Source of the DNA: a virus
Lineage: Duplodnaviria; Caudoviricetes
DNA length: 64,000 nucleotides
IMG/VR virus record: IMGVR_UViG_3300031555_001437
Strand: one strand, 5' to 3'
The notes below the pieces were generated by a model. That model was not told the DNA's origin and did not search any database. It was given only the letters and a program-made list of their open reading frames with translations. Positions 3,001 through 64,000 of this stretch are shown here, piece by piece. A program made the translations under genes and the position numbers. Numbering within the stretch: the first letter of the stretch is position 1; each line of letters starts with the position of its first letter.

Positions 3001-5010
3001 TTGATGAAAGGCGAAGATGGAAAAGATGGTAAGACTTACTATACATGGGTTAAATATGCCGACGATGCATCAGGTACTAATATGTCAAACGACCCGACGG
3101 GTAAAGAATATATCGGTTTGGCGCACAATAAGGAAACTCCCACAGAAAGCACGAATGCTTCTGATTACTCATGGGCGTTGTTCAAAGGCTCTGATGGTGT
3201 AGACGGAACCGATGGTAAGGACGGCGAGACTCCTTACATTAAAGAGAGTTATTGGTGGATTGGCGCTACCAACACAAACATTAAAGCCGAAGGAGTAGAT
3301 GGCGCAGACGGCCAGAATGGCGACACTCCTTACATTAAAGATGGCTATTGGTGGATTGGTGATGTCAATACTAACATTCAGGCAGAAGGTAAGGACGGCC
3401 AAGATGGTAAGGATGGAAACAACGGGTCTACCGTTAAAGTGGAGTACCTGTATTATAGCAAACAAGATTCGAGTGCTCCATCCAAACCAGTATATCCTGG
3501 GAACGCATTGACGTTGGGATGGAGTTTTGAGCCGCAGAGTGCATCGCTGTCGTCCCCATATGTGTTTGTATCTCAATGTACGGTAATCGACGATGTGTAT
3601 GGTACTTGGTCAACTCCTACGTGTTGGGCGAAGTATGGGATAGATGGTAAGAACGGCAGTGATGCAAGTGTAACAACCATCAATATGTTTAATGCTGTTA
3701 CGAACAATGGGGCAAAGCAAGGATGTTTTGAGCTTGACAATGGTGACTTGGCTATTAATGCTTCGTATATCAAGTCTGGGCAGATTGATACAAGCTTGCT
3801 AAACGTAGATGAAATTATTAGTTCTGGAAAAATTGCTGTTATGTCGGAAATTCCAACTACAACCAGTGATTTAACCAATGACAGCGGCTTTGCATATACT
3901 TCAGATATCCCAACGGATACTCAGATTACTATTATTACGGGCGAGTACATTAAAACTGCAAGTATATATGCACAAAACTTAGAGGTCGATGCGGCTCATA
4001 TCAAGGGTTCTTTAACTATAGGACAACTACCAGATACTGTTGCTGAAAAATCAGATGTGCCAACCAAAACCAGTGATCTAACAAATGATAGTGGATTCCA
4101 GAATGCGAGTGAAGTTACAACTATTACAAATGACACGATTTCTACCACAAACGTTGTTGCACAAAATTTAACAGTCAAGGCGGCGAATATTGACGGACAG
4201 CTTACGGCAGATCAGATTAATGCGGATGGTATTAGTGCAAATAATGCCAACATAAGCGGAACGTTGACTGCTGGTAATGGTAGTTTTATTGGTCCTTTTA
4301 ATATATATGAAGATGGCATGGGAGCAGTTGGCGACTATGGAATGTCTGGAACATGGATTAGTAAACAGGGAGTGACTTGTGACAAACTAACTGCTGAGTC
4401 TGCTGAGATTAATGGAGGTAGTATTACGGCAAGTAGCGGTAGTTTAAGCGGCATGACTAGCATATCTACGGATTGGGTAGCTATTGATAGCAATAGTGTC
4501 AGCATTAGACACCCCGACGATCCATATCATTTTTGGTATCTTAGTATGTCGGCAGGAGATTCGTCTGCGTCTATTGGTGGTACTGGAGGGTCAATAAGCT
4601 TTGGGTCTGTAGTAACTCTTAATGGCACATGGGCAGCTTCGTCGTGTCTTGGGACATCTTCTGATGAAAGGGTTAAAAATAGCATACAGTCAATATCAAC
4701 CGACGAACGCTACGATGTAATGTTTGATGCTCTTGCTCCATCTGTCTACAAGTATAATGATGGAACTAGCGGAAGAACACACACTGGCTATATTGCTCAG
4801 GATGTTCTTGCTGCTGTGGAATCGGCGGGGCTAACAAGTACGGATTTTGCTGGTTATATAAAAGCTCAAACAATAAATCCAGAAACTGGTGAAGAAACAG
4901 AAACTTGCTATTTACGTTATGAGGAGTTCATTGCGTTGAACACCGCCCAAATTCAAAAGCTCAAGGCTCGTGTTGCCGAGTTGGAAGCAAAATTATTAGG
5001 AGACGCATAA
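1..5010 (+). CDS. Tail fibre / receptor-binding protein with collagen-like and tandem beta-repeat modules and C-terminal intramolecular chaperone (peptidase S74-like); 5'-truncated by window edge
   Basis: Frame is open from nt 1 (YTDASKPDTVTYTYAKQG...). It has repeated G-x-D-G-x-D-G linkers and YLWTKTTFSDG repeats, and ends in SSDERVKNSI...HTGYIAQDV...LRYEEFIAL...IQKLKARVAELE, the typical S74 chaperone plus coiled coil. Confidence 0.85.
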   Translation, partial: YTDASKPDTVTYTYAKQGADGQPGVAGTSVTVISILYQVGSSATQAPTGTNWSQNVVAVPQGKYLWSKTTFSDGNVAYGVSRQGQDGLEGSSIVWKGELSARPASGEKNWVYKDAEDGIVYICTGNGLWEPMVLDGNDGADGAPGTNGLSVFITYNDSATTPNTPTGNGTSNGWHTNATSSAIWMSQKVAKDAASGSWGAPIKIQGKDGKDGVGVSSTTVSYGTSTSATTQPTSWQSTMPNVTDGHYLWTRTITDYTDSSVADTVTYTYVKQGSKGETGSPGTSVTVTSIQYQAGESSTTAPTGTWSDTIVSAAEGKYLWTKTTFSDGKVAYGVAKQGVSGKDGSGIKKVNTHLRSYPLAWWKEHADPECTDVNWTTGTSYDNSHIKQGDTIYIVGVASDVLSASGTAVTVTLYGVAQSITSSNVTIVPSHLITSGEKGDGGKDGVGVKSSTVTYGVSDSASVKPTSWGSSMPVIGENQYLWTCTVIDYTDASIPDTVTYTYAKQGAKGETGSPGTSVKVSSIQYQAGTSATVEPTGNWSNNVVPVNEGQYLWTKTTFSDGNVAYGVAKQGTSGQKGDDAPKVTKVTKQYYLSSSSTSLTGGSWSTSPSDFTKGRYMWTRDVYSMSDGSTINGEPVIDKTFTTISGWCSANNMTLIDGANIATGTIDAEQIAAKAIKADKVDVDGVITAAEGDIKKLASEEITSTYVTAQNLKVKAANVEDKLTATQIDVTGLLTAAEGDIKNLVSETIAVTELNADNLTSGTINASVVDVTNLSADNITSGAIDASVIDVTNLDADNITTGAISFNGGDYYISVTGDSGNYLVLPGLKISQEKAQFSGSIDVNKNFIVDEYGNVTLNGSISWGAGSSPTQIVYARDAIAAPESGTQLSDFPATDADGWHTSFSQTYDYFASYTYDGGKTWTDAVNIQGKDGSKPYVEDGYWYVDGVSTGVQVTYYTWVKYADTPTSGMSNIPDGKAYIGLAHNKTSTEASEDYDDYTWSLMKGEDGKDGKTYYTWVKYADDASGTNMSNDPTGKEYIGLAHNKETPTESTNASDYSWALFKGSDGVDGTDGKDGETPYIKESYWWIGATNTNIKAEGVDGADGQNGDTPYIKDGYWWIGDVNTNIQAEGKDGQDGKDGNNGSTVKVEYLYYSKQDSSAPSKPVYPGNALTLGWSFEPQSASLSSPYVFVSQCTVIDDVYGTWSTPTCWAKYGIDGKNGSDASVTTINMFNAVTNNGAKQGCFELDNGDLAINASYIKSGQIDTSLLNVDEIISSGKIAVMSEIPTTTSDLTNDSGFAYTSDIPTDTQITIITGEYIKTASIYAQNLEVDAAHIKGSLTIGQLPDTVAEKSDVPTKTSDLTNDSGFQNASEVTTITNDTISTTNVVAQNLTVKAANIDGQLTADQINADGISANNANISGTLTAGNGSFIGPFNIYEDGMGAVGDYGMSGTWISKQGVTCDKLTAESAEINGGSITASSGSLSGMTSISTDWVAIDSNSVSIRHPDDPYHFWYLSMSAGDSSASIGGTGGSISFGSVVTLNGTWAASSCLGTSSDERVKNSIQSISTDERYDVMFDALAPSVYKYNDGTSGRTHTGYIAQDVLAAVESAGLTSTDFAGYIKAQTINPETGEETETCYLRYEEFIALNTAQIQKLKARVAELEAKLLGDA

Positions 5011-41034: not shown

Positions 41035-41901
41035 TTACATGGCATGTCCGTCTTTAATTTCCCAATAAAAATCTCCGAACGCAATACGCTTGCCGTTGGC
41101 TCTTATAATACCATTGACAACCGCATCGATATCTCCTTGTTTCTTTGGACTTCTGTTCTTTATCAAATACTTAATAGCCCACAACGCTGCAGTGTCGATA
41201 GTGTCGAAATATTTTCTGTCACCGCTTTTGTTGTAGCATTTTACTTGATAATTTGATTCATCAGCAAGAGTATCTGCGTCAAATTTCTTATGCGGCCACT
41301 GAATGAAGATTTCTGGAGCATGTTTACTGTTTCCGCTCGGTGTCAACTTTGGCTGTCTCGACGGCAGCTTGGTTGCATCTTCGGCTGTGCATTTTATAAA
41401 CATATTCTCAGCAACCTCTCGTAACATCTTAGCATCTTCAAGAGCGTCGTGATGTTGTACTGTTTCCTCTCCGTGAACTAACGCGAAAATTCTTTGCAAT
41501 GAAATTTGACCAGCATTAAAATAGTCCCTTACAGTCGTAGAATAGTCAGTCAGCATACCTTTGATTGATGATACAAATATCATTGCTTTGGTATCTTTCA
41601 TATGACTGATTGTCCTGTCTAAGAATGTTTTATCGGAGTCGCCATAACAGAAGTACTCTGGGGCATTGTCGTCGTTGATGTTTAACACCCAATCATAAAA
41701 CTTGCCAAAAGCCTCGTCGGCACCTGGGGCGTTTGCTATCATCTCGTTTGTGATGCCAGTAAGAGTTGTAATAAAATTACTGACTTTATCCTTGTACGGC
41801 TTTACTAGTGTGGCAAAAGTATCGCCGTTTTCTGCAACACACCCAATGGAAATAATCCTTTGAGAAAACTGCGTTGCTTCAAAATCTAAATAAAACTTCA
41901 T
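41035..41901 (-). CDS. DEDDh 3'-5' exonuclease with C-terminal extension
   Basis: YLDFEAT, LTGIT, YGDSD, HDALEDA. Confidence 0.88.
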   Translation of the reverse strand: MKFYLDFEATQFSQRIISIGCVAENGDTFATLVKPYKDKVSNFITTLTGITNEMIANAPGADEAFGKFYDWVLNINDDNAPEYFCYGDSDKTFLDRTISHMKDTKAMIFVSSIKGMLTDYSTTVRDYFNAGQISLQRIFALVHGEETVQHHDALEDAKMLREVAENMFIKCTAEDATKLPSRQPKLTPSGNSKHAPEIFIQWPHKKFDADTLADESNYQVKCYNKSGDRKYFDTIDTAALWAIKYLIKNRSPKKQGDIDAVVNGIIRANGKRIAFGDFYWEIKDGHAM

Positions 41902-45390: not shown

Positions 45391-45507
45391 TAGTCACTTT
45401 TAGATTGGATTCGAACCAATGTCTCCAGTTTATCCGACTGGTGTTCTACCTCTAAACTACATCTCTAATTATTTGCAGAGACAACATGATATTGCTGTAA
45501 GTGACTA
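45391..45507 (-). ncRNA. ACAGCAA-stem RNA E1 enclosing tRNA D/anticodon(GAU)/T arms (Y-RNA-like)
   Basis: TAGTCACTT-ACAGCAA...AAGTGACTA terminal stem; internal TAGTTTAGAGGTAGAAC, CCAGT-CGGATAA-ACTGG, ATTGG-TTCGAAT-CCAAT; no acceptor stem or CCA. Confidence 0.7.
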
Positions 45508-46117: not shown

Positions 46118-46936
46118 TCAATCTTCAATTACTAATACATTTACCTTTTTGCTATACGCAGTACATGCGTCAATCGCAATAACACGTTCATCAACAAACG
46201 GCTCGAAAGATTTACTCCAATCTGCATGGGTCGGCTTCGGAAACTCTTTATACATTAGTTTCAAGTGCGACCAACCCCACGAACAGTGCCAGTGTCCACA
46301 CACGATTTGCTTTGACGGCTCATACACATCGTACCGCCATGCAAGTTCCATGCCGTTAAACCATCTTGCGGTATTCCACTCAGACGCGTGAACTTCTCTC
46401 CAATTCGGATTATACTGATACGTTCTGCCTTTACGATAGTGCGCTGGCATGTCTGTATTTGTCTCACAAGGAATGCTGCCATGGACAAACACATAATGCT
46501 CAGTCTCGTAATAATCAATACTTGCAGGAATGAGAGTTTTGCAGAAATCAGAGTTTAAAACCTTAGAGACGAACTTATTTCGATTTCTCAGAGCCTCGGT
46601 CTCTGTCATGCCGCTAAGTTGCAGCGCACTGCTCCAAGTGCCGTTGCTGACATGATGAGAATAACCCCAGGCAATAGCATCTGCGTACTTGTCGAAACCA
46701 TTAAGCATATCAAGCAACAAATCTTCGTGATTGCCACGTATGAAAATTAGCTCGTCGCGGTTATACAAGTCCATCATGAAGTCTTGCATCTCCACAGACT
46801 CTAGACCCCTGTCAAGAGCATCGCCACAAATGATTAACTTCTTGGGGTCAGAGTCCGTGAAAAAGCCTTTATCGTCAAGAGCTTGTTTGAACTCACTGTA
46901 AAAGGAATGTACGTCTGACGTTACATAATATTTCAT
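46118..46936 (-). CDS. Calcineurin-like metallophosphoesterase
   Basis: SDVH, GDALDRG, RGNHE, VHG, GHWH motifs; ATGA overlap with the upstream TROVE-like gene. Confidence 0.9.
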   Translation of the reverse strand: MKYYVTSDVHSFYSEFKQALDDKGFFTDSDPKKLIICGDALDRGLESVEMQDFMMDLYNRDELIFIRGNHEDLLLDMLNGFDKYADAIAWGYSHHVSNGTWSSALQLSGMTETEALRNRNKFVSKVLNSDFCKTLIPASIDYYETEHYVFVHGSIPCETNTDMPAHYRKGRTYQYNPNWREVHASEWNTARWFNGMELAWRYDVYEPSKQIVCGHWHCSWGWSHLKLMYKEFPKPTHADWSKSFEPFVDERVIAIDACTAYSKKVNVLVIED

Positions 46937-48468
46937 CTAATTGCCTCTTCTACTGCTCTATATCTTTCCGAATTCAGTTGCTCGAGCAAACACTCATACG
47001 GGTCAAGTTTACCCGACATAACCATCTTCGCAACGTTTACAGAGAAACCACTGACAAGGGCTACTCCCAAATCATTCTGCTTAACAGGAATTGCGCCAGT
47101 TCTAGAATTAACATTCCAGAACACGAGCCTTGGGAGTTGATATCCATGTGCTGCGTATTTTTGAGCGATAGCGTCAAAGAGAGTGGCGGTCGGGCGAGAG
47201 CCTCTGCTGGAGTACCAACTGGAAGACGTAGCTGGACCCATCGTTGCACATGAATCGAACTCCATGTCCGAAATGACCAGCACATTCGCAGGCATATCCC
47301 TCTGAGACATGTTGTTGTTAATAGCAGTCTGCAAAATCAAATCGAACGTTGCTTCGATATTAGTGTTTGCAACCTCGTTATGTCTACGTGCGATGGCAAT
47401 CTTCTCTCTCAGAGTAGAAGCGCCGCTAAAATCAACCAGCTGAGGTCTGCTGCTAAAAGTAATGTACTTATCCTTGAACTCGCCAGAAGATCTCTCTGCG
47501 AAGTAAATTGCAAGTGCGTTAGCAACCTCAAGAGCAGTTACACCAGTGTTGCCGCCAACAGTACACTGCATACTACCTGAACCATCTGCAACTACGATTG
47601 TATTACCGCAACCCTGTACAGTGTCTGGAAGAGCCTTCCACATAGCCTCGATACCTTTGTCTACACTGCGGCTATAAGCGTAAGAATGAACTAAGTCATG
47701 AGGAAACAGAACACTTGCATTGATCTTTGCCTCGCCCTTTTCAAGCGCACCAAGATATGCTCTGCGTCTATCCTCGTCGTTGCGTAAGAACGCACCGTTG
47801 TAAATCAAGTTTGCACGGCTAGGAACGGCCTCATAGTCAATATCTCCCCACTGCTTTGCAGACATCTTTCGCTCTACAACATCAATGTAGTTGCGCATCT
47901 TAGACAGCATCTTACGATACTCCTTAGAAGACATACCAAGACCGTTGCGAATAATTTTTGCAAGACGCTTGGTTTCTGCGGAAGACGCGTTTTCGGACGG
48001 AGCCCATTTGCTACAGAGGGAAATTGACTCCTTGTTCTTCATCGCTTGCTTGTCTGCTGCAAGCTGTTCACGAATATGGACAATAATATCATCTTTAAGG
48101 CTAGTATCAAGCAGACACCACAGGTCATCGTATCTGCCATACTCACTTACAAGTCTAATAACTGCCTTGATAATCTCTGGCTTCTCAGTAGCCAGATGCT
48201 TCATAACAATTCTGAACAGGCGTCTCTCGCCAATTCCCTGTCTTGCATCGCGGCAATAGAACAGCCACTTGATTGCGGTTACCTTGTCCTCATAATAAGC
48301 ATCCATAAACTTGTTGATGATTTGCTGCTCAGAAGCGCCTCTTAGAGAGGCCACAGCGAAATTCAAATCGAGCAACTTCTTACCAGTAGTTCGCCACGCT
48401 ACCGCGCCGTTCTCTGTCAAAACCTTTTCATTGTTAAGTTCGTTTTTGATTGCGTTCATGAAACTCAT
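46933..48468 (-). CDS. TROVE/Ro60-like protein with C-terminal vWA domain (DUF2828-type)
   Basis: TENGA, RDARQGIGER, EYGRYDDL, KWAPSE, YRK helical region; vWA MIDAS DGSGSM, ISDMEFD, VFWNV, LVSGFS; GGAGGA RBS supports start at 48468. Confidence 0.82.
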   Translation of the reverse strand: MSFMNAIKNELNNEKVLTENGAVAWRTTGKKLLDLNFAVASLRGASEQQIINKFMDAYYEDKVTAIKWLFYCRDARQGIGERRLFRIVMKHLATEKPEIIKAVIRLVSEYGRYDDLWCLLDTSLKDDIIVHIREQLAADKQAMKNKESISLCSKWAPSENASSAETKRLAKIIRNGLGMSSKEYRKMLSKMRNYIDVVERKMSAKQWGDIDYEAVPSRANLIYNGAFLRNDEDRRRAYLGALEKGEAKINASVLFPHDLVHSYAYSRSVDKGIEAMWKALPDTVQGCGNTIVVADGSGSMQCTVGGNTGVTALEVANALAIYFAERSSGEFKDKYITFSSRPQLVDFSGASTLREKIAIARRHNEVANTNIEATFDLILQTAINNNMSQRDMPANVLVISDMEFDSCATMGPATSSSWYSSRGSRPTATLFDAIAQKYAAHGYQLPRLVFWNVNSRTGAIPVKQNDLGVALVSGFSVNVAKMVMSGKLDPYECLLEQLNSERYRAVEEAIR

Positions 48469-48506
48469 TTTGTTTTCCTCCAAAATTTCATTTATAATAA
48501 CAATCC

Positions 48507-48566
48507 AAGACACATTAGGTTATATAGATTAAAAGTCTATTCCATTAAGATTGCTGTATGTGTCTT
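48507..48566 (-). ncRNA. ACAGCAA-stem RNA E2 carrying a tRNA-Lys-type anticodon stem-loop
   Basis: AAGACACAT-ACAGCAA...ATGTGTCTT; internal ATAGA-CTTTTAA-TCTAT. Confidence 0.7.
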
Positions 48567-48584
48567 AAGATATAGTTGACATGC

Positions 48585-48718
48585 GAGACACCATAATGAT
48601 ATGCATACACGACATTTACTGTCATGCAATTTTAAGCATGCCATTCGTCTTCAATATAGAGTGAACGGCAAGTTCCATTTACTATTATTTTCATCATTAA
48701 AATTGCTGTCGGTGTCTC
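48585..48718 (-). ncRNA. ACAGCAA-stem RNA E3
   Basis: GAGACACCG-ACAGCAA...TGGTGTCTC; internal hairpins TGCCGTTC/GAATGGCA and GCATGACA/TGTCGTGT. Confidence 0.7.
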
Positions 48719-48724
48719 TTTATC

Positions 48725-48793
48725 GAGATGCTATTAAACTATAAAATCATCATTCTTTAATTTCTTAGTAAATAACATTGCTGTTAGCATCTC
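48725..48793 (-). ncRNA. ACAGCAA-stem RNA E4
   Basis: GAGATGCTA-ACAGCAA...TAGCATCTC. Confidence 0.7.
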
Positions 48794-48803
48794 TTTTTTA
48801 AAC

Positions 48804-48862
48804 AAGGCACAATATAATTTCATTCCCAGCAGAAATATGTATTAAGTTGCTGTGTGTGCCTT
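48804..48862 (-). ncRNA. ACAGCAA-stem RNA E5
   Basis: AAGGCACA-C-ACAGCAA...TGTGCCTT. Confidence 0.7.
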
Positions 48863-48867
48863 TAAAG

Positions 48868-48994
48868 TGGTACGCGGACGATGAATCGAACATCGAACAT
48901 TTAGTCCCCATCTTTCTGTGAAAATTGCGGTTAAGGTTTATGTCTAAACCCATTCACAATACTACTAACGCTCTACCAGTTGAGCTATCCGCGC
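48868..48994 (-). ncRNA. tRNA-scaffold RNA E6: anticodon loop replaced by a permuted ACCGCAA-stem module
   Basis: Full acceptor (GCGCGGA/TCCGCGT + ACCA), D and T arms; TTAGT/ACTAA stem encloses TGTGAA-T-GGGTTTA-GACA-TAAACCT-TA-ACCGCAA-TT-TTCACA. Confidence 0.75.
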
Positions 48995-49002
48995 ATATTA
49001 AG

Positions 49003-49120
49003 TGGGGGCTGCAAGACTCGAACTTGCGACCTCGGAGTTACCAGCTCAAATGTAAAATTGCAGTTTAAGATTTTGTCAAACCTCAATTATACGCGCTCTA
49101 TCCAACTGAGCTAAGCCCCC
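49003..49120 (-). ncRNA. tRNA-scaffold RNA E7: Ile-like body, GGU anticodon loop, 44-nt ACTGCAA-stem insertion in the anticodon stem
   Basis: GGGGGCT/AGCCCCC acceptor with no encoded CCA; CG|insert 49048-49091|GAG-CTGGTAA-CTCCG; insert contains TGAGGTTT-GACA-AAATCTTA-A-ACTGCAA. Confidence 0.75.
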
Positions 49121-49162
49121 ATATTCACGGCAGAACATTCATTCTGTCGTGTTTGCTTGTAT

Positions 49163-49191
49163 ATTATAACATAATTTACTTAATTTGTCAA
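49163..49191 (-). promoter_or_regulatory. Consensus sigma-A promoter heading the RNA/TROVE/tRNA operon
   Basis: TTGACA-17-TATAAT with TG. Confidence 0.85.
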
Positions 49192-58117: not shown

Positions 58118-59758
58118 TCATTTTGTCGTGTAAAAATCATAGTCGCTCATAGTTAGCTGCAGATAATTGTTTCTGCCATATCTTACTTTGCTCAGAGTTC
58201 CAACTCCAACGATCTCTCCATTTTGCGGAGCACTCTCCCAAGTTCTATCATTCCAAGATACAAGCAATAGCCCGCTGTCATTATCTATGAACTTGCTGTG
58301 CTTTCCACCGCTCATGAACGCAGACTGATAATCATCACTTCTGATTAACACCGTTACGGGTTCAAAATCTGCTCCAGAGATACGATTGATTGCAGATAGC
58401 TGACGAATTAAATATTCGTTAACTTGGTTTGCATAAATCTCAATGTCGGCTTCAACTTTGACCGAGAACTCGACATCAGTAAGAACATCCTCGATTGCAA
58501 TCTTAAAATCTTCAAATTTATCTACGTCAATAAATGCTCCGCTTGCAAGAGGATGCCCTTGACATACACATAACCCAGTTTGATTAGCAATGTCAAGCAT
58601 ATCCTCTACCCCTATTGCACGCATACTGCCACTATATTCATGTTTAATAATTTCGCCAGTTTCATCATCTAGTTCAATTTTTTCGCGCAAAACAAACAGC
58701 GGTCGCTGATATTGGCTGAGGAGCTTATTCGCAACTAATCCAGAAACCGATGCGTCCACATCGTTTGGCAACATGAAAAACATACACTTTCTGTCAAGTT
58801 GATCTTCTGCCTGTTGAACGACGTTGTCCATCAACTCCGCAACAATATTGTTCTGCAACTCTCTACATCCTCTCAAATCTGAAATCAGCGCATCCATCTC
58901 ATCCTCGTCATCTGTGAGAAAAAGTTCCATGGCTTTTGTGTTTTGACCAATTCTCATAGCCGCATTAACAAGAGGCGCCACGCTAAAACTGATTGCTGTA
59001 CTGTCGAACGCATAGCTGCCCACCACCTTTTTAATCAGCTGATGGTCGTAATATTTTAATCCTCGATATACGATATACCGATTTTCTGGCGAGTTCATCG
59101 ACGTCATATCCGCCACCAGGCCAAACGCACCATACAACCATAGGTTAAGTTCATTTGCATAGTCTTCAAGATTCATGTGGTCTGCATATAACACATACTT
59201 CAACGCCACACCAGCTCCCGAAAGCTCTTTATTTGGATAATAGTTAGCCGAACTTACCAACACAAACGGCAAATCTGACTCCAATAATCTTCTCTCTGGA
59301 ATGTGATGGTCAAACACACAGAGTCTCACGCCAGTAGAAAGTATTTTCTCATATACCGCAGGATCATTATTTATAGAATCGACAATTATCATCACATCAA
59401 CATCTTTGAGTAACTCCAAGTCAAAATTCTCTGCTCCGTGCTCCTTGCCTTGATTGATTACGCACTGTACGTCTGCTCCACGTGCTCTCAGATATCTAAC
59501 CATGATTGCGTTAGCACTACATCCGTCGACGTCAACGTCAGCCAGCACCAAGAATTTCTCTCCCATAGTAATTGCGTCTTCTATGGTAACATACGCTTCG
59601 TGTAGACCAATAAGTTCGTCAAAGTCAACCATATCGTCTTCTGTAGGAGCCAAAAACGCGCTCAAATCATCAATACCGCGACTTTGAAGTATTGCCTCGA
59701 TAATTTCTTCATCGTCCATACTCGTTCCGTCAATACGAGCAGTTAATTGTTTAATCAT
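58118..59758 (-). CDS. recJ: RecJ-like DHH ssDNA exonuclease
   Basis: DVDVDG, DHH, SGAGV, ADM, GSMR, GH motifs. Confidence 0.9.
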   Translation of the reverse strand: MIKQLTARIDGTSMDDEEIIEAILQSRGIDDLSAFLAPTEDDMVDFDELIGLHEAYVTIEDAITMGEKFLVLADVDVDGCSANAIMVRYLRARGADVQCVINQGKEHGAENFDLELLKDVDVMIIVDSINNDPAVYEKILSTGVRLCVFDHHIPERRLLESDLPFVLVSSANYYPNKELSGAGVALKYVLYADHMNLEDYANELNLWLYGAFGLVADMTSMNSPENRYIVYRGLKYYDHQLIKKVVGSYAFDSTAISFSVAPLVNAAMRIGQNTKAMELFLTDDEDEMDALISDLRGCRELQNNIVAELMDNVVQQAEDQLDRKCMFFMLPNDVDASVSGLVANKLLSQYQRPLFVLREKIELDDETGEIIKHEYSGSMRAIGVEDMLDIANQTGLCVCQGHPLASGAFIDVDKFEDFKIAIEDVLTDVEFSVKVEADIEIYANQVNEYLIRQLSAINRISGADFEPVTVLIRSDDYQSAFMSGGKHSKFIDNDSGLLLVSWNDRTWESAPQNGEIVGVGTLSKVRYGRNNYLQLTMSDYDFYTTK

Positions 59759-60020
59759 ATTCACCACGCTCCAACTCTTTAATTCTTCTATCTAAAGCGT
59801 CTCTTTGCTTCTTCAATAGCTGTACATCAATTGGTTTAAACATACCCCAATCGCCGTGCGCACCACACCACCAATGGTCTTCACAACCTTCGGAAGAGAT
59901 TGATCCTGAGCCAAACCAATAAAAATCTTCAACCATCTCAATACAGTCTGTCTCTCTTGGACTTCCAACGTGATTGGCGCACAAGTGTCTTCTTTGACAT
60001 TGACTGCTACAACAAACCAT
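59751..60020 (-). CDS. Hypothetical Cys-rich protein
   Basis: GGAGG RBS; operon coupling. Confidence 0.6.
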   Translation of the reverse strand: MVCCSSQCQRRHLCANHVGSPRETDCIEMVEDFYWFGSGSISSEGCEDHWWCGAHGDWGMFKPIDVQLLKKQRDALDRRIKELERGEYD

Positions 60021-61781: not shown

Positions 61782-63122
61782 TTATCCCATTTTTGCTGCC
61801 GCTTGTAATAAAACATTGTGTTCATTTTGGATTTCTCCATCAATTACCATCTGCAATAACGTGCTCAATGTATGCCCTAATTTTTTCCCAGTTTCATATC
61901 CGATACTAATTAAATCATTACCGTTAATCGCTAAATCTTTAGCGGAAAAACACTCGCCCTCTTGAAGCACATCTTCAAGTAGTTGCTCAATCACATCTAC
62001 TTTTTCAATTCTTTCTGCACCGTATTCTTTCTTTTGCCCTTTGATATCTGCTCTACGTACATTCAAAAGTCTTCTAAATTGTTCTTCTCCAATTTTATTG
62101 AGCCATCTTTTAATGTACTTACGTCCGACTTCAAATGTGGCATCGTGATAATGAACCAATCCTGCTACGTCGTGTCGAGTTTTATTATCAAATCTCAGGC
62201 CTAGCATGATAGCGTCGGCTATCTCAGCACTTACTCTACCATGTCCTTTAAAATGCCTTGTCCCATCCTCGTCGTCTTGGTAACAATGCGGCTTTCCAAA
62301 GTCATGGAACAAAATAGCAAGTCGAGTTGTTAAGTCGCAAGACTCGTCATAACTTAATGCTTTTGCAGTATGGGTGAACACATCATAATCATGATACGGG
62401 TTGTTCTGCTGAAAATCTACGATGTCACACATTTCGGGTATAATTTGGCAAAACACTCCGACATATAAACGTAGAACAAACGGGAATCTGTTGCATATTA
62501 CCATTTTACACAACTCACTATTGACGCGCTCTTTCGAAATATTCTTTAATAACTGTGCGTTTGAAATAATTGCGTACTTCGTGTGTTCCTCTATTTCAAA
62601 GTCCATCTGACAAGAAAATCTCAGCGCCCGCAATACTCTCAATGCGTCTTCTTGAAATCTATCATTTGCATTTCCAACGCATCGAATTTTCATATCTTTG
62701 ATATCATCTAAGCCACCAAACGGGTCTATTAATCCCTCTTCATCATTGTAGGCAATAGCGTTAATAGTGAAGTCTCGTCTACTTAAGTCTTCTTCCAGGT
62801 TTGAAGTAAACGTTACTGTATCTGGTCGACGATTGTCAGAATAATCTCCGTCAATTCGAAATGTGGTTACTTCGTAAGACTCATCACCAACAACTACAGT
62901 TAGAGTGCCGTGCTGCAATCCAGTTTCAATTATTCTTTTATCATTAAAAATATTCAGCATCTCGCTCGGAGTGGCGGACGTGCAAATATCCCAGTCATTA
63001 GGAGTTCGACCAAGAATACTATCTCTTACACATCCTCCAACTATATATGCAGCGTGTCCATGGCTTTGTAACATATGAATTAAATCATTTGCATGGTTTG
63101 GAATGTTAATATTAAATTTCAC
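61782..63122 (-). CDS. cca: CCA-adding enzyme / tRNA nucleotidyltransferase with HD domain
   Basis: VGGCVRD, DWDI, EVTTFR, DLSRRDFTINA, EDALRVLRALRF, HDFGKP. Confidence 0.92.
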   Translation of the reverse strand: MKFNINIPNHANDLIHMLQSHGHAAYIVGGCVRDSILGRTPNDWDICTSATPSEMLNIFNDKRIIETGLQHGTLTVVVGDESYEVTTFRIDGDYSDNRRPDTVTFTSNLEEDLSRRDFTINAIAYNDEEGLIDPFGGLDDIKDMKIRCVGNANDRFQEDALRVLRALRFSCQMDFEIEEHTKYAIISNAQLLKNISKERVNSELCKMVICNRFPFVLRLYVGVFCQIIPEMCDIVDFQQNNPYHDYDVFTHTAKALSYDESCDLTTRLAILFHDFGKPHCYQDDEDGTRHFKGHGRVSAEIADAIMLGLRFDNKTRHDVAGLVHYHDATFEVGRKYIKRWLNKIGEEQFRRLLNVRRADIKGQKKEYGAERIEKVDVIEQLLEDVLQEGECFSAKDLAINGNDLISIGYETGKKLGHTLSTLLQMVIDGEIQNEHNVLLQAAAKMG

Positions 63123-64000
63123 CCTTTACCACCCTTTCATTTACGCTTGCAACAAACTCATTGATTGCTTTATAATTAGGCCCATCTGGAAGATTTGTAT
63201 TTTTCTTTGCGTATTCAAGTCGCTTTTCACATTCATCAACCATTTCATAAAACTCTGCAATTGGCTGCCTATTATCGTCAAGATATTTACCGTTACGAAT
63301 ATCCATCAATAAGTCATGATCTGCATCTCGATATGTAATAATTTGCTCTTTTTCAAGGATATCAAAACACATCATGTAAAGACGTATGAGGTGCATCATG
63401 TGCTTACCCAATTTATCATGACTGATTGCTTTTTCGTTTCTGCTACCAATTTTGCCATACGACTTGACTATTTGCTGCATTTCAGCCCACATACCAGCAT
63501 AATCCCTCAAAGGATAATGGTTCAAATGCGCGTCCATAAAGATCTCGGTATCATATCCGTCTTGCACCGCCTTATCAATATATAATTTGATAGCATCATC
63601 TGGCATAGTTAAGTATCTGTCTTTGAACACATACTGGGCGTTTTCAATTGTTTTATAAATATGCTCTTCGTTTTGTGCTTGACCAACGAGTCGATTTGAT
63701 TTGTTTTCAAGCCTTCTAAGCTGCTGATTAGCATATCCGCCAAAAGAATGAACTGCTCTCTTAGAAAGGAACAGATGTGCGTTGTCAAGAAGTTCGCGCC
63801 CAACAGGAGATATATAAAGATAGTGCTCTGGTTTATTGCCGAGCATCTCAATTGTGTTTGGATTGACATTGCTCAGCAGAGAGACCAACTTGTTAAAAGC
63901 ATAAATAGTGGTGTCTGTTTCTTCGTTGACAAACTGCTCAAAATTCTCGTTAGTCAAAATCTGCATCTTACTATTCAGAGCACACCCACGAATATCCAAG
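63112..64000 (-). CDS. Pol-beta-superfamily nucleotidyltransferase (Nuc-transf/RlaP-like); 5'-truncated
   Basis: DIRG, NPNTIEML, FGGYA..Q, KHMMHLIRL, IRNG, LP..P. Confidence 0.78.
   Translation of the reverse strand, partial: LDIRGCALNSKMQILTNENFEQFVNEETDTTIYAFNKLVSLLSNVNPNTIEMLGNKPEHYLYISPVGRELLDNAHLFLSKRAVHSFGGYANQQLRRLENKSNRLVGQAQNEEHIYKTIENAQYVFKDRYLTMPDDAIKLYIDKAVQDGYDTEIFMDAHLNHYPLRDYAGMWAEMQQIVKSYGKIGSRNEKAISHDKLGKHMMHLIRLYMMCFDILEKEQIITYRDADHDLLMDIRNGKYLDDNRQPIAEFYEMVDECEKRLEYAKKNTNLPDGPNYKAINEFVASVNERVVKGEI

What the first reader, a model, noticed from the sequence alone, without database searches (positions are those of the whole stretch)
48868..49120. Two complete tRNA scaffolds carrying a circularly permuted copy of the ACNGCAA module in the anticodon arm
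Seen: E6 and E7 have intact acceptor, D and T arms. In both, the handle stem is closed by a GACA loop (GGGTTTA-GACA-TAAACCT-TA-ACCGCAA; TGAGGTTT-GACA-AAATCTTA-A-ACTGCAA), so the ends that are free in E1-E5 are joined here. Established: in YrlA the Ro-binding stem takes the place of the anticodon arm and the acceptor end is looped. Inference: E6/E7 are the reverse permutation, with a free 3' acceptor end that could be CCA-tailed or aminoacylated. They may be evolutionary intermediates between tRNA and Y RNA.
Basis: partly seen in the sequence, partly recalled or inferred. Interest (0 to 1): 0.85.

Follow-up and report, generated by a model that had tools for sequence, protein, structure and literature searches.

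The report
Handle-tagged tRNA mimics for Ro60-like protein
Two phage genes fold as complete tRNAs, but each carries an extra hairpin-plus-ACNGCAA "handle" in the anticodon stem; the same handle marks small RNAs next to a Ro60-like protein gene in many phages, so these are most likely undescribed tRNA-shaped partner RNAs of that protein and not ordinary tRNAs.

Summary
On the minus strand, E7 (49120-49003) and E6 (48994-48868) have intact acceptor, D and T arms. Each has a 7-9 bp hairpin with a GACA loop, followed directly by ACUGCAA (E7) or ACCGCAA (E6).

In E7 the 44-nt module sits between nt 28 and 29 of the anticodon stem. Deleting it in silico gives a canonical tRNA-Thr(GGU). E6 gives a Pro(GGG)-like arm.

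In 55 of 80 related phage contigs I found 93 such elements. They have 67 distinct hairpin stems, and the split anticodon stem shows compensatory changes. A covarying 15:48 tertiary pair is present in 85 of 88.

The helix next to the motif has the same position-specific signature as the free "handle" RNAs downstream, so it is the same module with permuted connectivity.

The adjacent DUF2828 protein models as Ro60 (TROVE ring plus vWA). Its Bas63 homologue is reported to counter a defence system.

My best reading (0.6) is unspliced tRNA mimics that dock this protein. I found no support for the "evolutionary intermediate" idea.

This scan has noted the same design on other DNA (at least 24 genomes). 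I found no published description.

The parts
49163..49191 (-). Sigma-70 promoter with full consensus and an extended -10. It drives the whole array.
   Evidence: 12 of 12 hexamer matches, 17-nt spacer, TG before the -10. No terminator-like site lies between it and the DUF2828 gene on the minus strand.
49126..49151 (-). 10-bp leader hairpin between the promoter and E7.
   Evidence: One search lists the inverted repeat, and one search shows the sequence. Its function was not examined.
49003..49120 (-). E7: a 118-nt tRNA-shaped RNA. Acceptor stem 49120-49114 / 49010-49004; D arm 49111-49095; T arm 49027-49011; discriminator A at 49003; no encoded CCA.
   Evidence: Rfam tRNA 45.7 bits over model positions 1-71. 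U8, A14, G18G19 and G15:C48 are present.
49048..49091 (-). E7 insert: a 44-nt tag arm between nt 28 and 29 of the anticodon stem. It consists of a 5-nt linker, a 9-bp hairpin with GACA loop (49086-49065), ACUGCAA (49064-49058) and a 10-nt linker.
   Evidence: The hairpin covaries among orthologues (L002, L004, L067, L080).
49033..49047 (-). E7 retained anticodon arm: 3 bp (GAG/CUC), the loop CUGGUAA with anticodon GGU at 49042-49040, and the 3' CG that pairs with C27-G28 (49093-49092).
   Evidence: After removal of the 44 nt, ARAGORN calls tRNA-Thr(ggt). The L004 orthologue has GCU/AGC with the same loop, which is a compensatory change.
48868..48994 (-). E6: a 124-nt tRNA-shaped RNA plus encoded CCA (48870-48868). 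Acceptor stem 48994-48988 / 48878-48872 (G1-U72 wobble); T arm 48895-48879; A15:U48.
   Evidence: Rfam tRNA 47.9 bits; sequence.
48925..48951 (-). E6 tag: a 7-bp hairpin with GACA loop (48951-48934), UA, then ACCGCAA (48931-48925).
   Evidence: The hairpin is also in the MFE and centroid folds.
48901..48911 (-). E6 anticodon-loop-like AUGGGG(A), with GGG at 48909-48907, followed by the 3' strand of the anticodon stem (48905-48901).
   Evidence: A 2+2 split stem gives a canonical 7-nt loop, and ARAGORN then calls Pro(ggg). The contiguous 5-bp stem leaves a non-canonical loop. Relatives (L001, L018, L033) keep (A/U)UGGGG(A).
48500..48862 (-). Each has a 5' strand before the motif and its partner strand downstream.
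46933..48474 (-). DUF2828 + DUF7788/vWA protein gene, with a Ro60-like fold. It is the presumed binder of the tag.
   Evidence: Pfam. AF2 model with pLDDT 82.8. The 13 best PDB fold matches are all Ro60/TROVE, with E 6e-9 to 3e-5 and full-length alignments.
46118..46936 (-). Calcineurin-like metallophosphoesterase gene that overlaps the DUF2828 stop codon.
   Evidence: The same pairing occurs in Enterococcus phage H1. It is not conserved in the L001-L011 relatives.

Best explanation
E6 and E7 are stable, unspliced, tRNA-shaped members of the phage's array of Y-RNA-like small RNAs.

Proposed production. The array is transcribed from one promoter together with the gene of a Ro60-like ring protein (DUF2828 plus vWA). 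The elements are cut out like tRNAs, by RNase P at the 5' end and by 3' trimming. E7 needs CCA addition.

Proposed architecture. Each element is a full L-shaped tRNA body with a free acceptor end. One extra arm branches from the anticodon stem, after nt 28 in E7. The arm is a roughly 9-bp helix with a fixed signature, followed by single-stranded ACNGCAA. This is the same module that forms the 'handle' of the free small RNAs downstream, but here the far end is closed by a loop. I propose that this module is the docking site of the Ro60-like protein.

Proposed function. Because the arm leaves the helix three base pairs above an intact, natural-looking anticodon loop, the particle would display a whole tRNA, anticodon included, right beside the protein. 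The most likely use is as a tether or bait. It would bring the protein to, or soak up, factors that recognise tRNAs by their anticodon arm. Candidates are host anticodon nucleases or other tRNA-targeting defences, and repair or modification enzymes.

What is shown: the anatomy, its conservation and covariation, the identity of the module with the free handles, the protein fold, and the gene linkage.

What is inferred: binding, lack of splicing, and the bait or tether role. I give about 0.35 to the bait/tether role alone.
For: 1. tRNA core.
- The Rfam tRNA model matches both elements end to end.
- Across 88 tagged elements, U8 and the D-loop GG are present in 88 of 88.
- The tertiary 15:48 pair is G:C in 61 and A:U in 24, so it covaries.

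2. Tag.
- 91 of 93 elements have a hairpin directly 5' of the motif, with 67 distinct stems.
- 66 have a hairpin of 7 bp or more, against a mean of 13 in shuffles.
- The motif variants are ACAGCAA (75), ACUGCAA (11) and ACCGCAA (5).

3. Same module as the free handles. Both strands have matching position-specific frequencies, including G at register 10.

4. The anticodon arm is kept under selection.
- A perfect split arm (5 bp, U33, R37) occurs in 36 of 93 elements, against a mean of 3.8 and a maximum of 10 in shuffles.
- For the GUU group, the lower 3 bp take six different complementary forms while the loop stays invariant.
- E7 has GAG/CUC where L004 has GCU/AGC, with the same CUGGUAA loop.

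5. Linkage to the protein.
- 55 of 80 related contigs have at least one tagged element within 2.5 kb of the gene.
- In the complete genome G001, tagged elements occur only next to the gene.
- The handle-plus-ACAGCAA module lies beside DUF2828 genes in Bacillus, Escherichia, Enterococcus, Listeria, Staphylococcus, Mycobacterium and Campylobacter phages.
- A tagged tRNA follows the gene in Synechococcus phage B23, where it is annotated 'tRNA-Undet'.

6. The protein has a Ro60 fold.

7. The tagged elements are not needed for decoding. G001 has canonical tRNA-Thr(UGU) and tRNA-Pro(UGG) alongside tagged UGU and UGG elements. The tagged ones are not close copies of the canonical ones.

8. Context of conflict over RNA.
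- The window carries a CCA-adding enzyme, an RlaP-family protein and a phosphoesterase.
- All five near-complete relatives carry RNA ligase family genes.
- The Bas63 homologue gp130 (38% identity) is reported to counter the Ppl defence (PMC11482910).
Against: - There is no expression, binding or end-mapping data for any of these RNAs.
- Thermodynamic folding alone prefers another fold for the E7 insert (-40.7 against -29.5 kcal/mol for the comparative model).
- In E6 the anticodon loop is canonical only if the stem is read as 2+2 bp.
- About 60% of tagged elements lack a perfect anticodon arm, so display of an anticodon cannot be the whole story.
- Bas63 gp130 rescued T7 when expressed alone (PMC11482910), so at least one activity of the protein needs no phage RNA partner.
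- Exact restoration of a cloverleaf on deletion of the insert is also what an intron would look like.
Confidence: 0.6

Rival explanations
1. They are genuine tRNA-Thr(GGU) and tRNA-Pro(GGG) genes interrupted by a new kind of short intron. The hairpin plus ACNGCAA would be the recognition element of a protein-assisted splicing system, with the Ro60-like protein as cofactor, an unknown endonuclease, and a phage or host RNA ligase. The mature tRNAs would decode.
For: - In-silico removal of 44 nt from E7 gives a canonical tRNA-Thr(ggt), and removal of 53 nt from E6 gives a Pro(ggg) call.
- Anticodon loops obey natural rules: U33, A37 after U36, G37 after G36.
- CCA is encoded in E6 and in 19 of 88 elements.
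- RNA ligase families are present in the five related genomes.
Against: - The same module sits on at least 240 small RNAs that have no exons.
- More than half of the tagged elements restore no canonical anticodon arm.
- The insertion is in the stem (28/29), not in the loop.
- There is no archaeal-type splicing endonuclease and no RtcB in five near-complete relatives.
- No group I intron model matches, and 44 nt is far too short for one.
- Canonical tRNAs with the same anticodons coexist in G001.
Confidence: 0.12
2. The tRNA body is only a processing and stability scaffold. It lets RNase P and 3' trimming cut the tag out of the polycistronic transcript and protects it. On this reading the tRNA shape has no target of its own.
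For: - The elements lie in a co-transcribed array with spacers of about 8 nt, like tRNA operons.
- Acceptor, D and T arms are the most conserved parts.
- Tagged elements without a canonical anticodon arm are common.
Against: - A scaffold needs no anticodon loop. Yet loops stay canonical and lower stems change by compensation.
- Free handle RNAs in the same array manage without a tRNA body.
Confidence: 0.13
3. They are working decoding tRNAs that keep the extra arm, are charged, and act on the ribosome.
For: The acceptor end is free, and the anticodon loops and tRNA tertiary nucleotides are canonical.
Against: - A 44-nt arm (9-bp helix plus single strands) branching from the anticodon stem would probably clash with the ribosome's decoding sites (inference).
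- Discriminator bases vary within one anticodon group (sequences).
- The elements are redundant with canonical tRNAs.
Confidence: 0.05
4. They are decaying tRNA pseudogenes that were hit by a repeated or mobile element.
For: The module is repeated many times in the locus.
Against: - Every helix is conserved with compensatory change across proteins of 46-72% identity.
- The insertion point is fixed.
- The design is present in a distant cyanophage.
Confidence: 0.02

Closest known systems
YrlA-type bacterial and phage Y RNAs bound by Ro60/Rsr (Rfam RF02553; Chen et al. 2014, PMC4201824)
   Same: - A small RNA encoded on the same strand next to a Ro60-fold ring protein.
- It combines a protein-binding helix that carries a short conserved purine-rich motif (GNCGAA there, ACNGCAA here) with a tRNA mimic that has real T and D arms.
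   Different: - In YrlA the RNA ends form the protein-binding stem and the acceptor position is looped. Here the ends form a normal acceptor stem, the binding helix is looped, and an anticodon loop is kept.
- The motif is different.
- The protein is DUF2828, not Pfam TROVE.
- The YrlA model scores 22 bits against a gathering score of 69 in the window, and gives no gathering-level hit in nine DUF2828 phage loci.
Thermus phage phiLo Ro60 with Yrl1/Yrl2 (PMC12135203; PDB 9KOP, 9L5Y)
   Same: - A phage-encoded Ro60-fold protein with small partner RNAs encoded just upstream.
- It is the best structural match of the window's protein.
   Different: - The phiLo RNAs are stem-bulge-stem with a CGAA motif and no tRNA body.
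- Sequence identity of the proteins is about 17%.
Free handle-plus-ACAGCAA small RNAs of DUF2828 phages
   Same: The same helix signature and motif, the same locus and the same presumed protein partner.
   Different: In the free form the helix is made by the RNA's two ends. In E6/E7 it is closed by a loop of about 4 nt and grafted into a tRNA.
Intron-containing tRNA genes (bacterial group I introns; archaeal bulge-helix-bulge introns)
   Same: An insertion in the anticodon arm whose removal restores a cloverleaf.
   Different: - There is no group I fold.
- The position is in the stem.
- No splicing endonuclease was found in relatives.
- The insert is a module shared with RNAs that have no exons.
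Dictyostelid Class I RNAs (Rfam RF01414; Kjellin et al. 2021, PMC7919456)
   Same: A short stem joins the 5' and 3' ends, with a conserved 11-nt motif right after the 5' strand. The invariant positions given in the paper (T3, C6, C9, A10, A11) fit NNUNACAGCAA. The letters of the motif are from my memory, not from the text.
   Different: - These are eukaryotic RNAs with no tRNA body.
- RF01414 gave no hit at E up to 10 in the window.
- A link to DUF2828 in amoebae was not tested here.

Membership tests
tRNA (Rfam RF00005) | Covariance-model score above gathering, with acceptor, D and T arms | tested here: met
   45.7 bits (E7) and 47.9 bits (E6) against a gathering score of 29, over model positions 1-71.
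tRNA (Rfam RF00005) | Conserved tertiary nucleotides (U8, A14, G18G19, T-loop, R15:Y48) | tested here: met
   Both elements have them. Across 88 relatives, U8 is present in 88 of 88, the D-loop GG in 88 of 88, and a Watson-Crick-type 15:48 pair in 85 of 88.
tRNA (Rfam RF00005) | Continuous 5-bp anticodon stem closing a 7-nt loop | tested here: not met
   In E7 the stem is interrupted by 44 nt after nt 28. In E6 a 5-bp stem closes a 58-nt loop, or a 2+2 split stem is formed. ARAGORN at default settings calls neither.
tRNA (Rfam RF00005) | Aminoacylation and decoding | not testable with these tools
   This needs acid-gel or periodate assays and ribosome association.
YrlA Y RNA (Rfam RF02553) | Covariance-model score at or above 69 bits | tested here: not met
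   22.2 bits, and the hit spans the 3' half of E7 plus the 5' half of E6.
YrlA Y RNA (Rfam RF02553) | 5' and 3' ends pair to form the Ro-binding stem with GNCGAA, and the acceptor position is closed by a loop | tested here: not met
   The ends form a 7-bp acceptor stem. The motif is ACNGCAA after a looped helix.
YrlA Y RNA (Rfam RF02553) | Encoded within 4 kb of, and on the same strand as, a Ro60 orthologue | tested here: inconclusive
   The elements are on the same strand, about 400-650 nt upstream of a protein with a Ro60 fold. That protein matches Pfam DUF2828/DUF7788, not TROVE, and gives no sequence hit to PDB Ro60 chains.
Handle-ACAGCAA RNAs of DUF2828 phages (undescribed) | Helix of about 9 bp with the signature A(-8), C(-5), C(-3), partner G at register 10, then ACNGCAA | tested here: met
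   E7 and E6 fit, and the frequency tables of inserts and free handles agree.
Handle-ACAGCAA RNAs of DUF2828 phages (undescribed) | Lies beside a DUF2828 gene | tested here: met
   True in the window, in 55 of 80 related contigs and in cultured phages of at least eight host genera.
Handle-ACAGCAA RNAs of DUF2828 phages (undescribed) | Bound by the DUF2828 protein | not testable with these tools
   This needs EMSA, RIP or a structure.
tRNA with group I intron | Group I catalytic core, usually 200 nt or more, in the anticodon loop | tested here: not met
   No intron family matches at E up to 10, and the inserts are 44 and 51-53 nt.
tRNA with archaeal-type intron | Splicing endonuclease (PF01974) available, and a bulge-helix-bulge at the junctions | tested here: not met
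   PF01974 is absent from five near-complete related phage genomes. The bulge-helix-bulge was not modelled formally, and host genomes are unknown.

The most novel reading that the evidence does not exclude
The inserts are a new class of protein-dependent tRNA intron in bacterial viruses. The Ro60-like protein would recognise the hairpin-plus-ACNGCAA arm and direct its excision from the anticodon stem at nt 28/29. Ligation by a phage RNA ligase would follow, so the phage could switch particular tRNAs (Thr-GGU, Pro-GGG, Asn-GUU and others) on during infection. This would be the first tRNA splicing in the bacterial world that is not group I.
Probability: 0.08. Interest if true: 0.95.

Novelty: new variant of a known kind. 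Interest (0 to 1): 0.72.

Why it matters
Ro60 and its Y RNAs are conserved from bacteria to humans, but it is still unclear what the tRNA-like part of bacterial Y RNAs is for.

- **A new design.** Here a large, widespread group of phages has built the same kind of particle in a different way. It is a complete tRNA, with free acceptor end and authentic anticodon loop, carrying a small docking arm for a Ro60-shaped protein.
- **Experimental handles.** The anticodon identities are readable (Thr, Pro, Asn, Lys, Tyr and others), which gives direct ways to ask which tRNA-recognising factor is the target.
- **A link to phage defence.** A homologue of the protein is already reported to defeat an anti-phage system.
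- **Annotation.** The finding explains 'undetermined' or missed tRNA genes and small spurious ORFs in phage annotations.
- **A biotechnology parallel.** It is a natural precedent for the tRNA-scaffold strategy used to express RNAs.

Tried and rejected
- **Single-sequence folding.** The MFE fold of E7 pairs the motif with upstream bases. That helix is not kept in orthologues (L004, L080, L064), so I rejected it in favour of the covarying hairpin.
- **A closing helix between the 5' linker (AAUUG) and the CAAUU of the motif.** It is present only in a subset, with no compensation where it changes. I did not adopt it.
- **The YrlA hit at 48947-49053.** It merely joins the T arm of E7 to the D arm of E6. 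The acceptor strands of the two elements cannot pair.
- **A covariance model from the MAFFT alignment A2.** Hairpin and anticodon-arm columns were out of register. I did segment-wise counting in Python instead, so no R-scape-type statistic is given.
- **A whole genome for the window.** None is held. I used complete relatives instead.
- **GenBank phage DNA similarity to the array.** There was none.
- **Supplement of Chen et al. 2014, to see which phages they covered.** It is not held.
- **My first reading that a Bas63 handle encloses tRNA-Asn.** This was wrong. A nearer partner strand makes it a plain module of about 65 nt.
- **The lenient 'handle partner' test.** It is met at 49% of random positions. 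I therefore rely on the distance distribution and the register-10 G, not on the raw count of 247.
- **RtcB as a conserved partner.** It is absent from five related genomes, although it is adjacent to the gene in a faecal phage contig and in Listeria phage LMSP-25.
Full report
**What is there.**

The finding lies on the minus strand. A full-consensus sigma-70 promoter sits at 49191-49163 (12 of 12 matches, extended -10). It is followed by:
- a 10-bp leader hairpin;
- E7 (49120-49003);
- an 8-nt spacer;
- E6 (48994-48871, plus encoded CCA to 48868);
- four stem-plus-ACAGCAA modules;
- a gene at 48474-46933 whose product matches Pfam DUF2828 and DUF7788/vWA.

No terminator-like site interrupts this stretch on the minus strand.

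The Rfam tRNA model matches E7 (45.7 bits) and E6 (47.9 bits) over all 71 model positions, with 57-58 extra nucleotides in the anticodon arm. ARAGORN at default settings calls neither. With its intron option it calls both, with meaningless anticodons.

In both elements a hairpin with a GACA loop is followed by ACCGCAA (E6) or ACUGCAA (E7).

**The anticodon loop is still there.**

Another first-stage note (e1-5747595) said that removing 44 nt from E7 restores a cloverleaf. I tested this.
- C27-G28 (49093-49092) pair with C42-G43 (49034-49033).
- The next 44 nt are the insert.
- Then come GAG, the loop CUGGUAA and CUC.
- With the insert deleted, ARAGORN at default settings calls tRNA-Thr(ggt) with a perfect cloverleaf.

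E6 can be read in two ways:
- With a contiguous 5-bp stem, the module and a non-canonical remainder lie in a 58-nt loop.
- With a 2+2 split stem, the loop is AUGGGGA. After removal of 53 nt, ARAGORN calls Pro(ggg).

**Relatives.**

The DUF2828 protein found 11 and then 80 related IMG/VR contigs at 46-72% identity. A simple finder required T arm 5/5, acceptor stem 7/7 and D stem at least 3/4, and did not use the motif.
- It gave a bimodal length distribution, 70-90 nt and 110-140 nt.
- Of 132 unique long hits, 101 carry ACNGC(A/G)A in the middle.
- After removing nested calls, 93 tagged elements remain.
- By strict criteria, 55 of 80 contigs have at least one tagged element within 2.5 kb of the gene.

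Hairpin:
- 91 of 93 have a hairpin directly 5' of the motif, with 67 different stem sequences.
- Hairpins of 7 bp or more occur in 66 of 93, against a mean of 13 and a maximum of 23 in 200 shuffles.

tRNA core, across 88 elements:
- U8 in 88 of 88.
- GG in the D loop in 88 of 88.
- The tertiary 15:48 pair is G:C in 61 and A:U in 24. E7 has G:C and E6 has A:U.

**The split anticodon arm is selected.**

A perfect split arm (5 bp, U33 and a purine at 37) is found in 36 of 93 elements, against a mean of 3.8 and a maximum of 10 in shuffles. In these the insert sits after 2 or 3 bp, that is at 28/29 or 29/30. The loops look natural. Anticodons seen are GUU (many), GGU, UGU, UUU, GGG, UGG, GCU, GUA and GAG. 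A37 follows U36 and G37 follows G36 in most.

In the GUU group the three lower base pairs take six different complementary forms while the loop CUGUUAA never changes. E7 has GAG/CUC and its L004 orthologue has GCU/AGC around the same loop.

The other elements have a contiguous 5-bp stem that closes a large loop. E6's nearest relatives keep (A/U)UGGGG(A) before the 3' strand. So anticodon display is common but not universal.

**Same module as the free handles, permuted.**

I tabulated the 12 nt before the motif for 247 free sites and 93 tRNA inserts. The frequencies agree:

| Position | Free handles | tRNA inserts |
|---|---|---|
| A at -8 | 0.64 | 0.62 |
| C at -5 | 0.68 | 0.82 |
| C at -3 | 0.66 | 0.67 |

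Read in the same register, the partner strand also agrees:

| Position | Free handles | tRNA inserts |
|---|---|---|
| G opposite -3 | 0.74 | 0.93 |
| G opposite -5 | 0.76 | 0.81 |
| U opposite -8 | 0.68 | 0.69 |
| G at register 10 | 0.70 | 0.87 |

At random positions the register-10 G is 0.25. My lenient partner test is met at 49% of random positions against 83% of motif sites. Random partners show a flat distance distribution, whereas real ones peak at 20-79 nt.

In the free RNAs the partner strand lies downstream, so the RNA ends make the helix. In E6/E7 it lies upstream and a loop of 3-4 nt joins the strands. The conserved G is the first base of that loop in 58 of 91 elements. The GACA loop as such is not conserved.

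**The protein.**
- Sequence search of the PDB finds nothing.
- An AlphaFold2 model built on 36 homologues has mean pLDDT 82.8 and pTM 0.80.
- Its 13 best Foldseek matches are all Ro60/TROVE structures, aligned over their full length. They are Thermus phage phiLo, Xenopus, human and Deinococcus Ro60, with E from 6e-9 to 3e-5. vWA domains follow in the ranking.

**Distribution in cultured phages.**

tblastn finds the protein in 706 GenBank phage records. Handle-plus-ACAGCAA modules lie beside the gene in:
- Bacillus phage Tsamsa;
- Escherichia phage Bas63;
- Enterococcus phage H1;
- Listeria phage LMSP-25;
- Staphylococcus phage S-CoN_Ph7;
- Mycobacterium phage Samty;
- Campylobacter phage CP81;
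- a 735-kb uncultured phage.

In Synechococcus phage B23, the 110-nt feature annotated 'tRNA-Undet' right after the gene is a tagged tRNA with a 3+2 split stem. None of these loci reaches the Rfam YrlA gathering score.

**Splicing or not.**

Against splicing:
- The module is shared with hundreds of RNAs that have no exons.
- Most tagged elements would not yield a canonical tRNA.
- Five related genomes at least 90% complete have no RtcB and no archaeal-type splicing endonuclease.
- The complete genome G001 (170 kb, terminal repeats) has canonical tRNA-Thr(UGU) and tRNA-Pro(UGG) as well as tagged UGU and UGG elements. Tagged elements occur only next to the DUF2828 gene and are not close copies of the canonical tRNAs.

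For splicing:
- The restoration is exact.
- RNA ligase family genes are present in all five genomes.

I rate splicing at about 0.1.

**Function.**

What follows is inference. The closest frame is Ro60 with Y RNAs.
- Bacterial YrlA combines a Ro-binding stem with a tRNA mimic that tRNA enzymes recognise (PMC4201824).
- The phiLo phage Ro60 binds two upstream-encoded RNAs and host PNPase (PMC12135203).
- Bas63 gp130 is the DUF2828 homologue (38% identity, E 4e-80). A preprint reports that it counters the Ppl defence system, and does so even when moved into T7. Its authors guessed that some neighbouring 'tRNA genes' might be Y RNAs (PMC11482910).

The window and its relatives also carry a CCA-adding enzyme, an RlaP-family protein, phosphoesterases and RNA ligases. 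This is the gene set expected where tRNAs are being cut and mended.

I therefore propose that the arm docks the Ro60-like ring three base pairs above a natural anticodon loop. The particle would then act as a tether or bait for factors that read tRNA anticodon arms.

**Verdict.**
The permuted handle on a tRNA scaffold and the free acceptor end hold. Membership of YrlA and the 'evolutionary intermediate' idea do not.
- The key addition is the retained, selected anticodon arm.
- Other follow-ups of this scan reached similar readings on other DNA.
- Full-text searches found no paper describing this RNA-protein pairing. That library does not hold most subscription-journal papers.

Noticed in passing
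L007:2300-2640: An IS605-type transposon (end of a TnpB-like ORF plus a RAGATH-18 RNA, 67 bits at 2516-2579) occupies the place where sister contigs have their first tagged tRNA-like. Only the last ~30 nt of that element remain. This is a natural knockout.
   Followed up: partly
L115:3978-4108 (Escherichia phage Bas63, MZ501086): A handle-plus-ACAGCAA RNA encloses a T arm, a closed acceptor-like hairpin and a D arm (YrlA-like topology). It lies on the plus strand under two small minus-strand ORFs (bas63_0137 and 0138) that are probably mis-annotations. A plain module of about 65 nt lies at 3436-3500.
   Followed up: partly
L123:6872-6981 (Synechococcus phage B23, MN695335): The 110-nt feature annotated 'tRNA-Undet-???' directly after the DUF2828 gene is a tagged tRNA. 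It has a 7-bp hairpin, ACUGCAA and a 3+2 split anticodon stem, with anticodon UCG.
   Followed up: partly
L001:2650-2770: A handle-plus-ACAGCAA module whose two strands enclose a whole tRNA-Ile(GAU)-like sequence (Rfam tRNA 48.8 bits at 2691-2760). This is a third topology beside the free and the grafted forms.
   Followed up: no
window 45392-45506 (-): A partial tRNA-model hit (45403-45460, model positions 7-64) with an ACAGCAA at 45498-45492 lies inside the canonical tRNA cluster. It is another tagged tRNA mimic, away from the main array.
   Followed up: no
window 48507-48566 (-): The last free handle module before the gene carries a 5-bp stem with the loop CUUUUAA, which is the loop of tRNA-Lys(UUU). 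A canonical tRNA-Lys(UUU) is also present at 45666-45591.
   Followed up: partly
window 61782-63999 (-): A CCA-adding enzyme gene (PolyA_pol head, tRNA_NucTran2_2 and HD domains) overlaps an RlaP-family nucleotidyltransferase gene. An RNase T-like exonuclease gene is at 41035-41901 and a DHH phosphoesterase gene at 58118-59767.
   Followed up: partly
L014:1000-1905 (MT837221): In a faecal phage contig, an RtcB-like ORF (identified by reading its conserved motifs, not by a family search) ends just before the DUF2828 gene. Listeria phage LMSP-25 has RtcB and an RNA ligase a few genes downstream of its copy.
   Followed up: no
L011:5669-5965: Group II intron domain hits (152 and 50 bits) lie downstream of the tRNA array.
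   Followed up: no
handle modules in general: The stem-plus-ACAGCAA layout resembles the 6-bp stem and 11-nt motif of dictyostelid Class I RNAs (PMC7919456). The invariant positions given in that paper fit, but the Rfam Class I model (RF01414) does not hit the window.
   Followed up: partly
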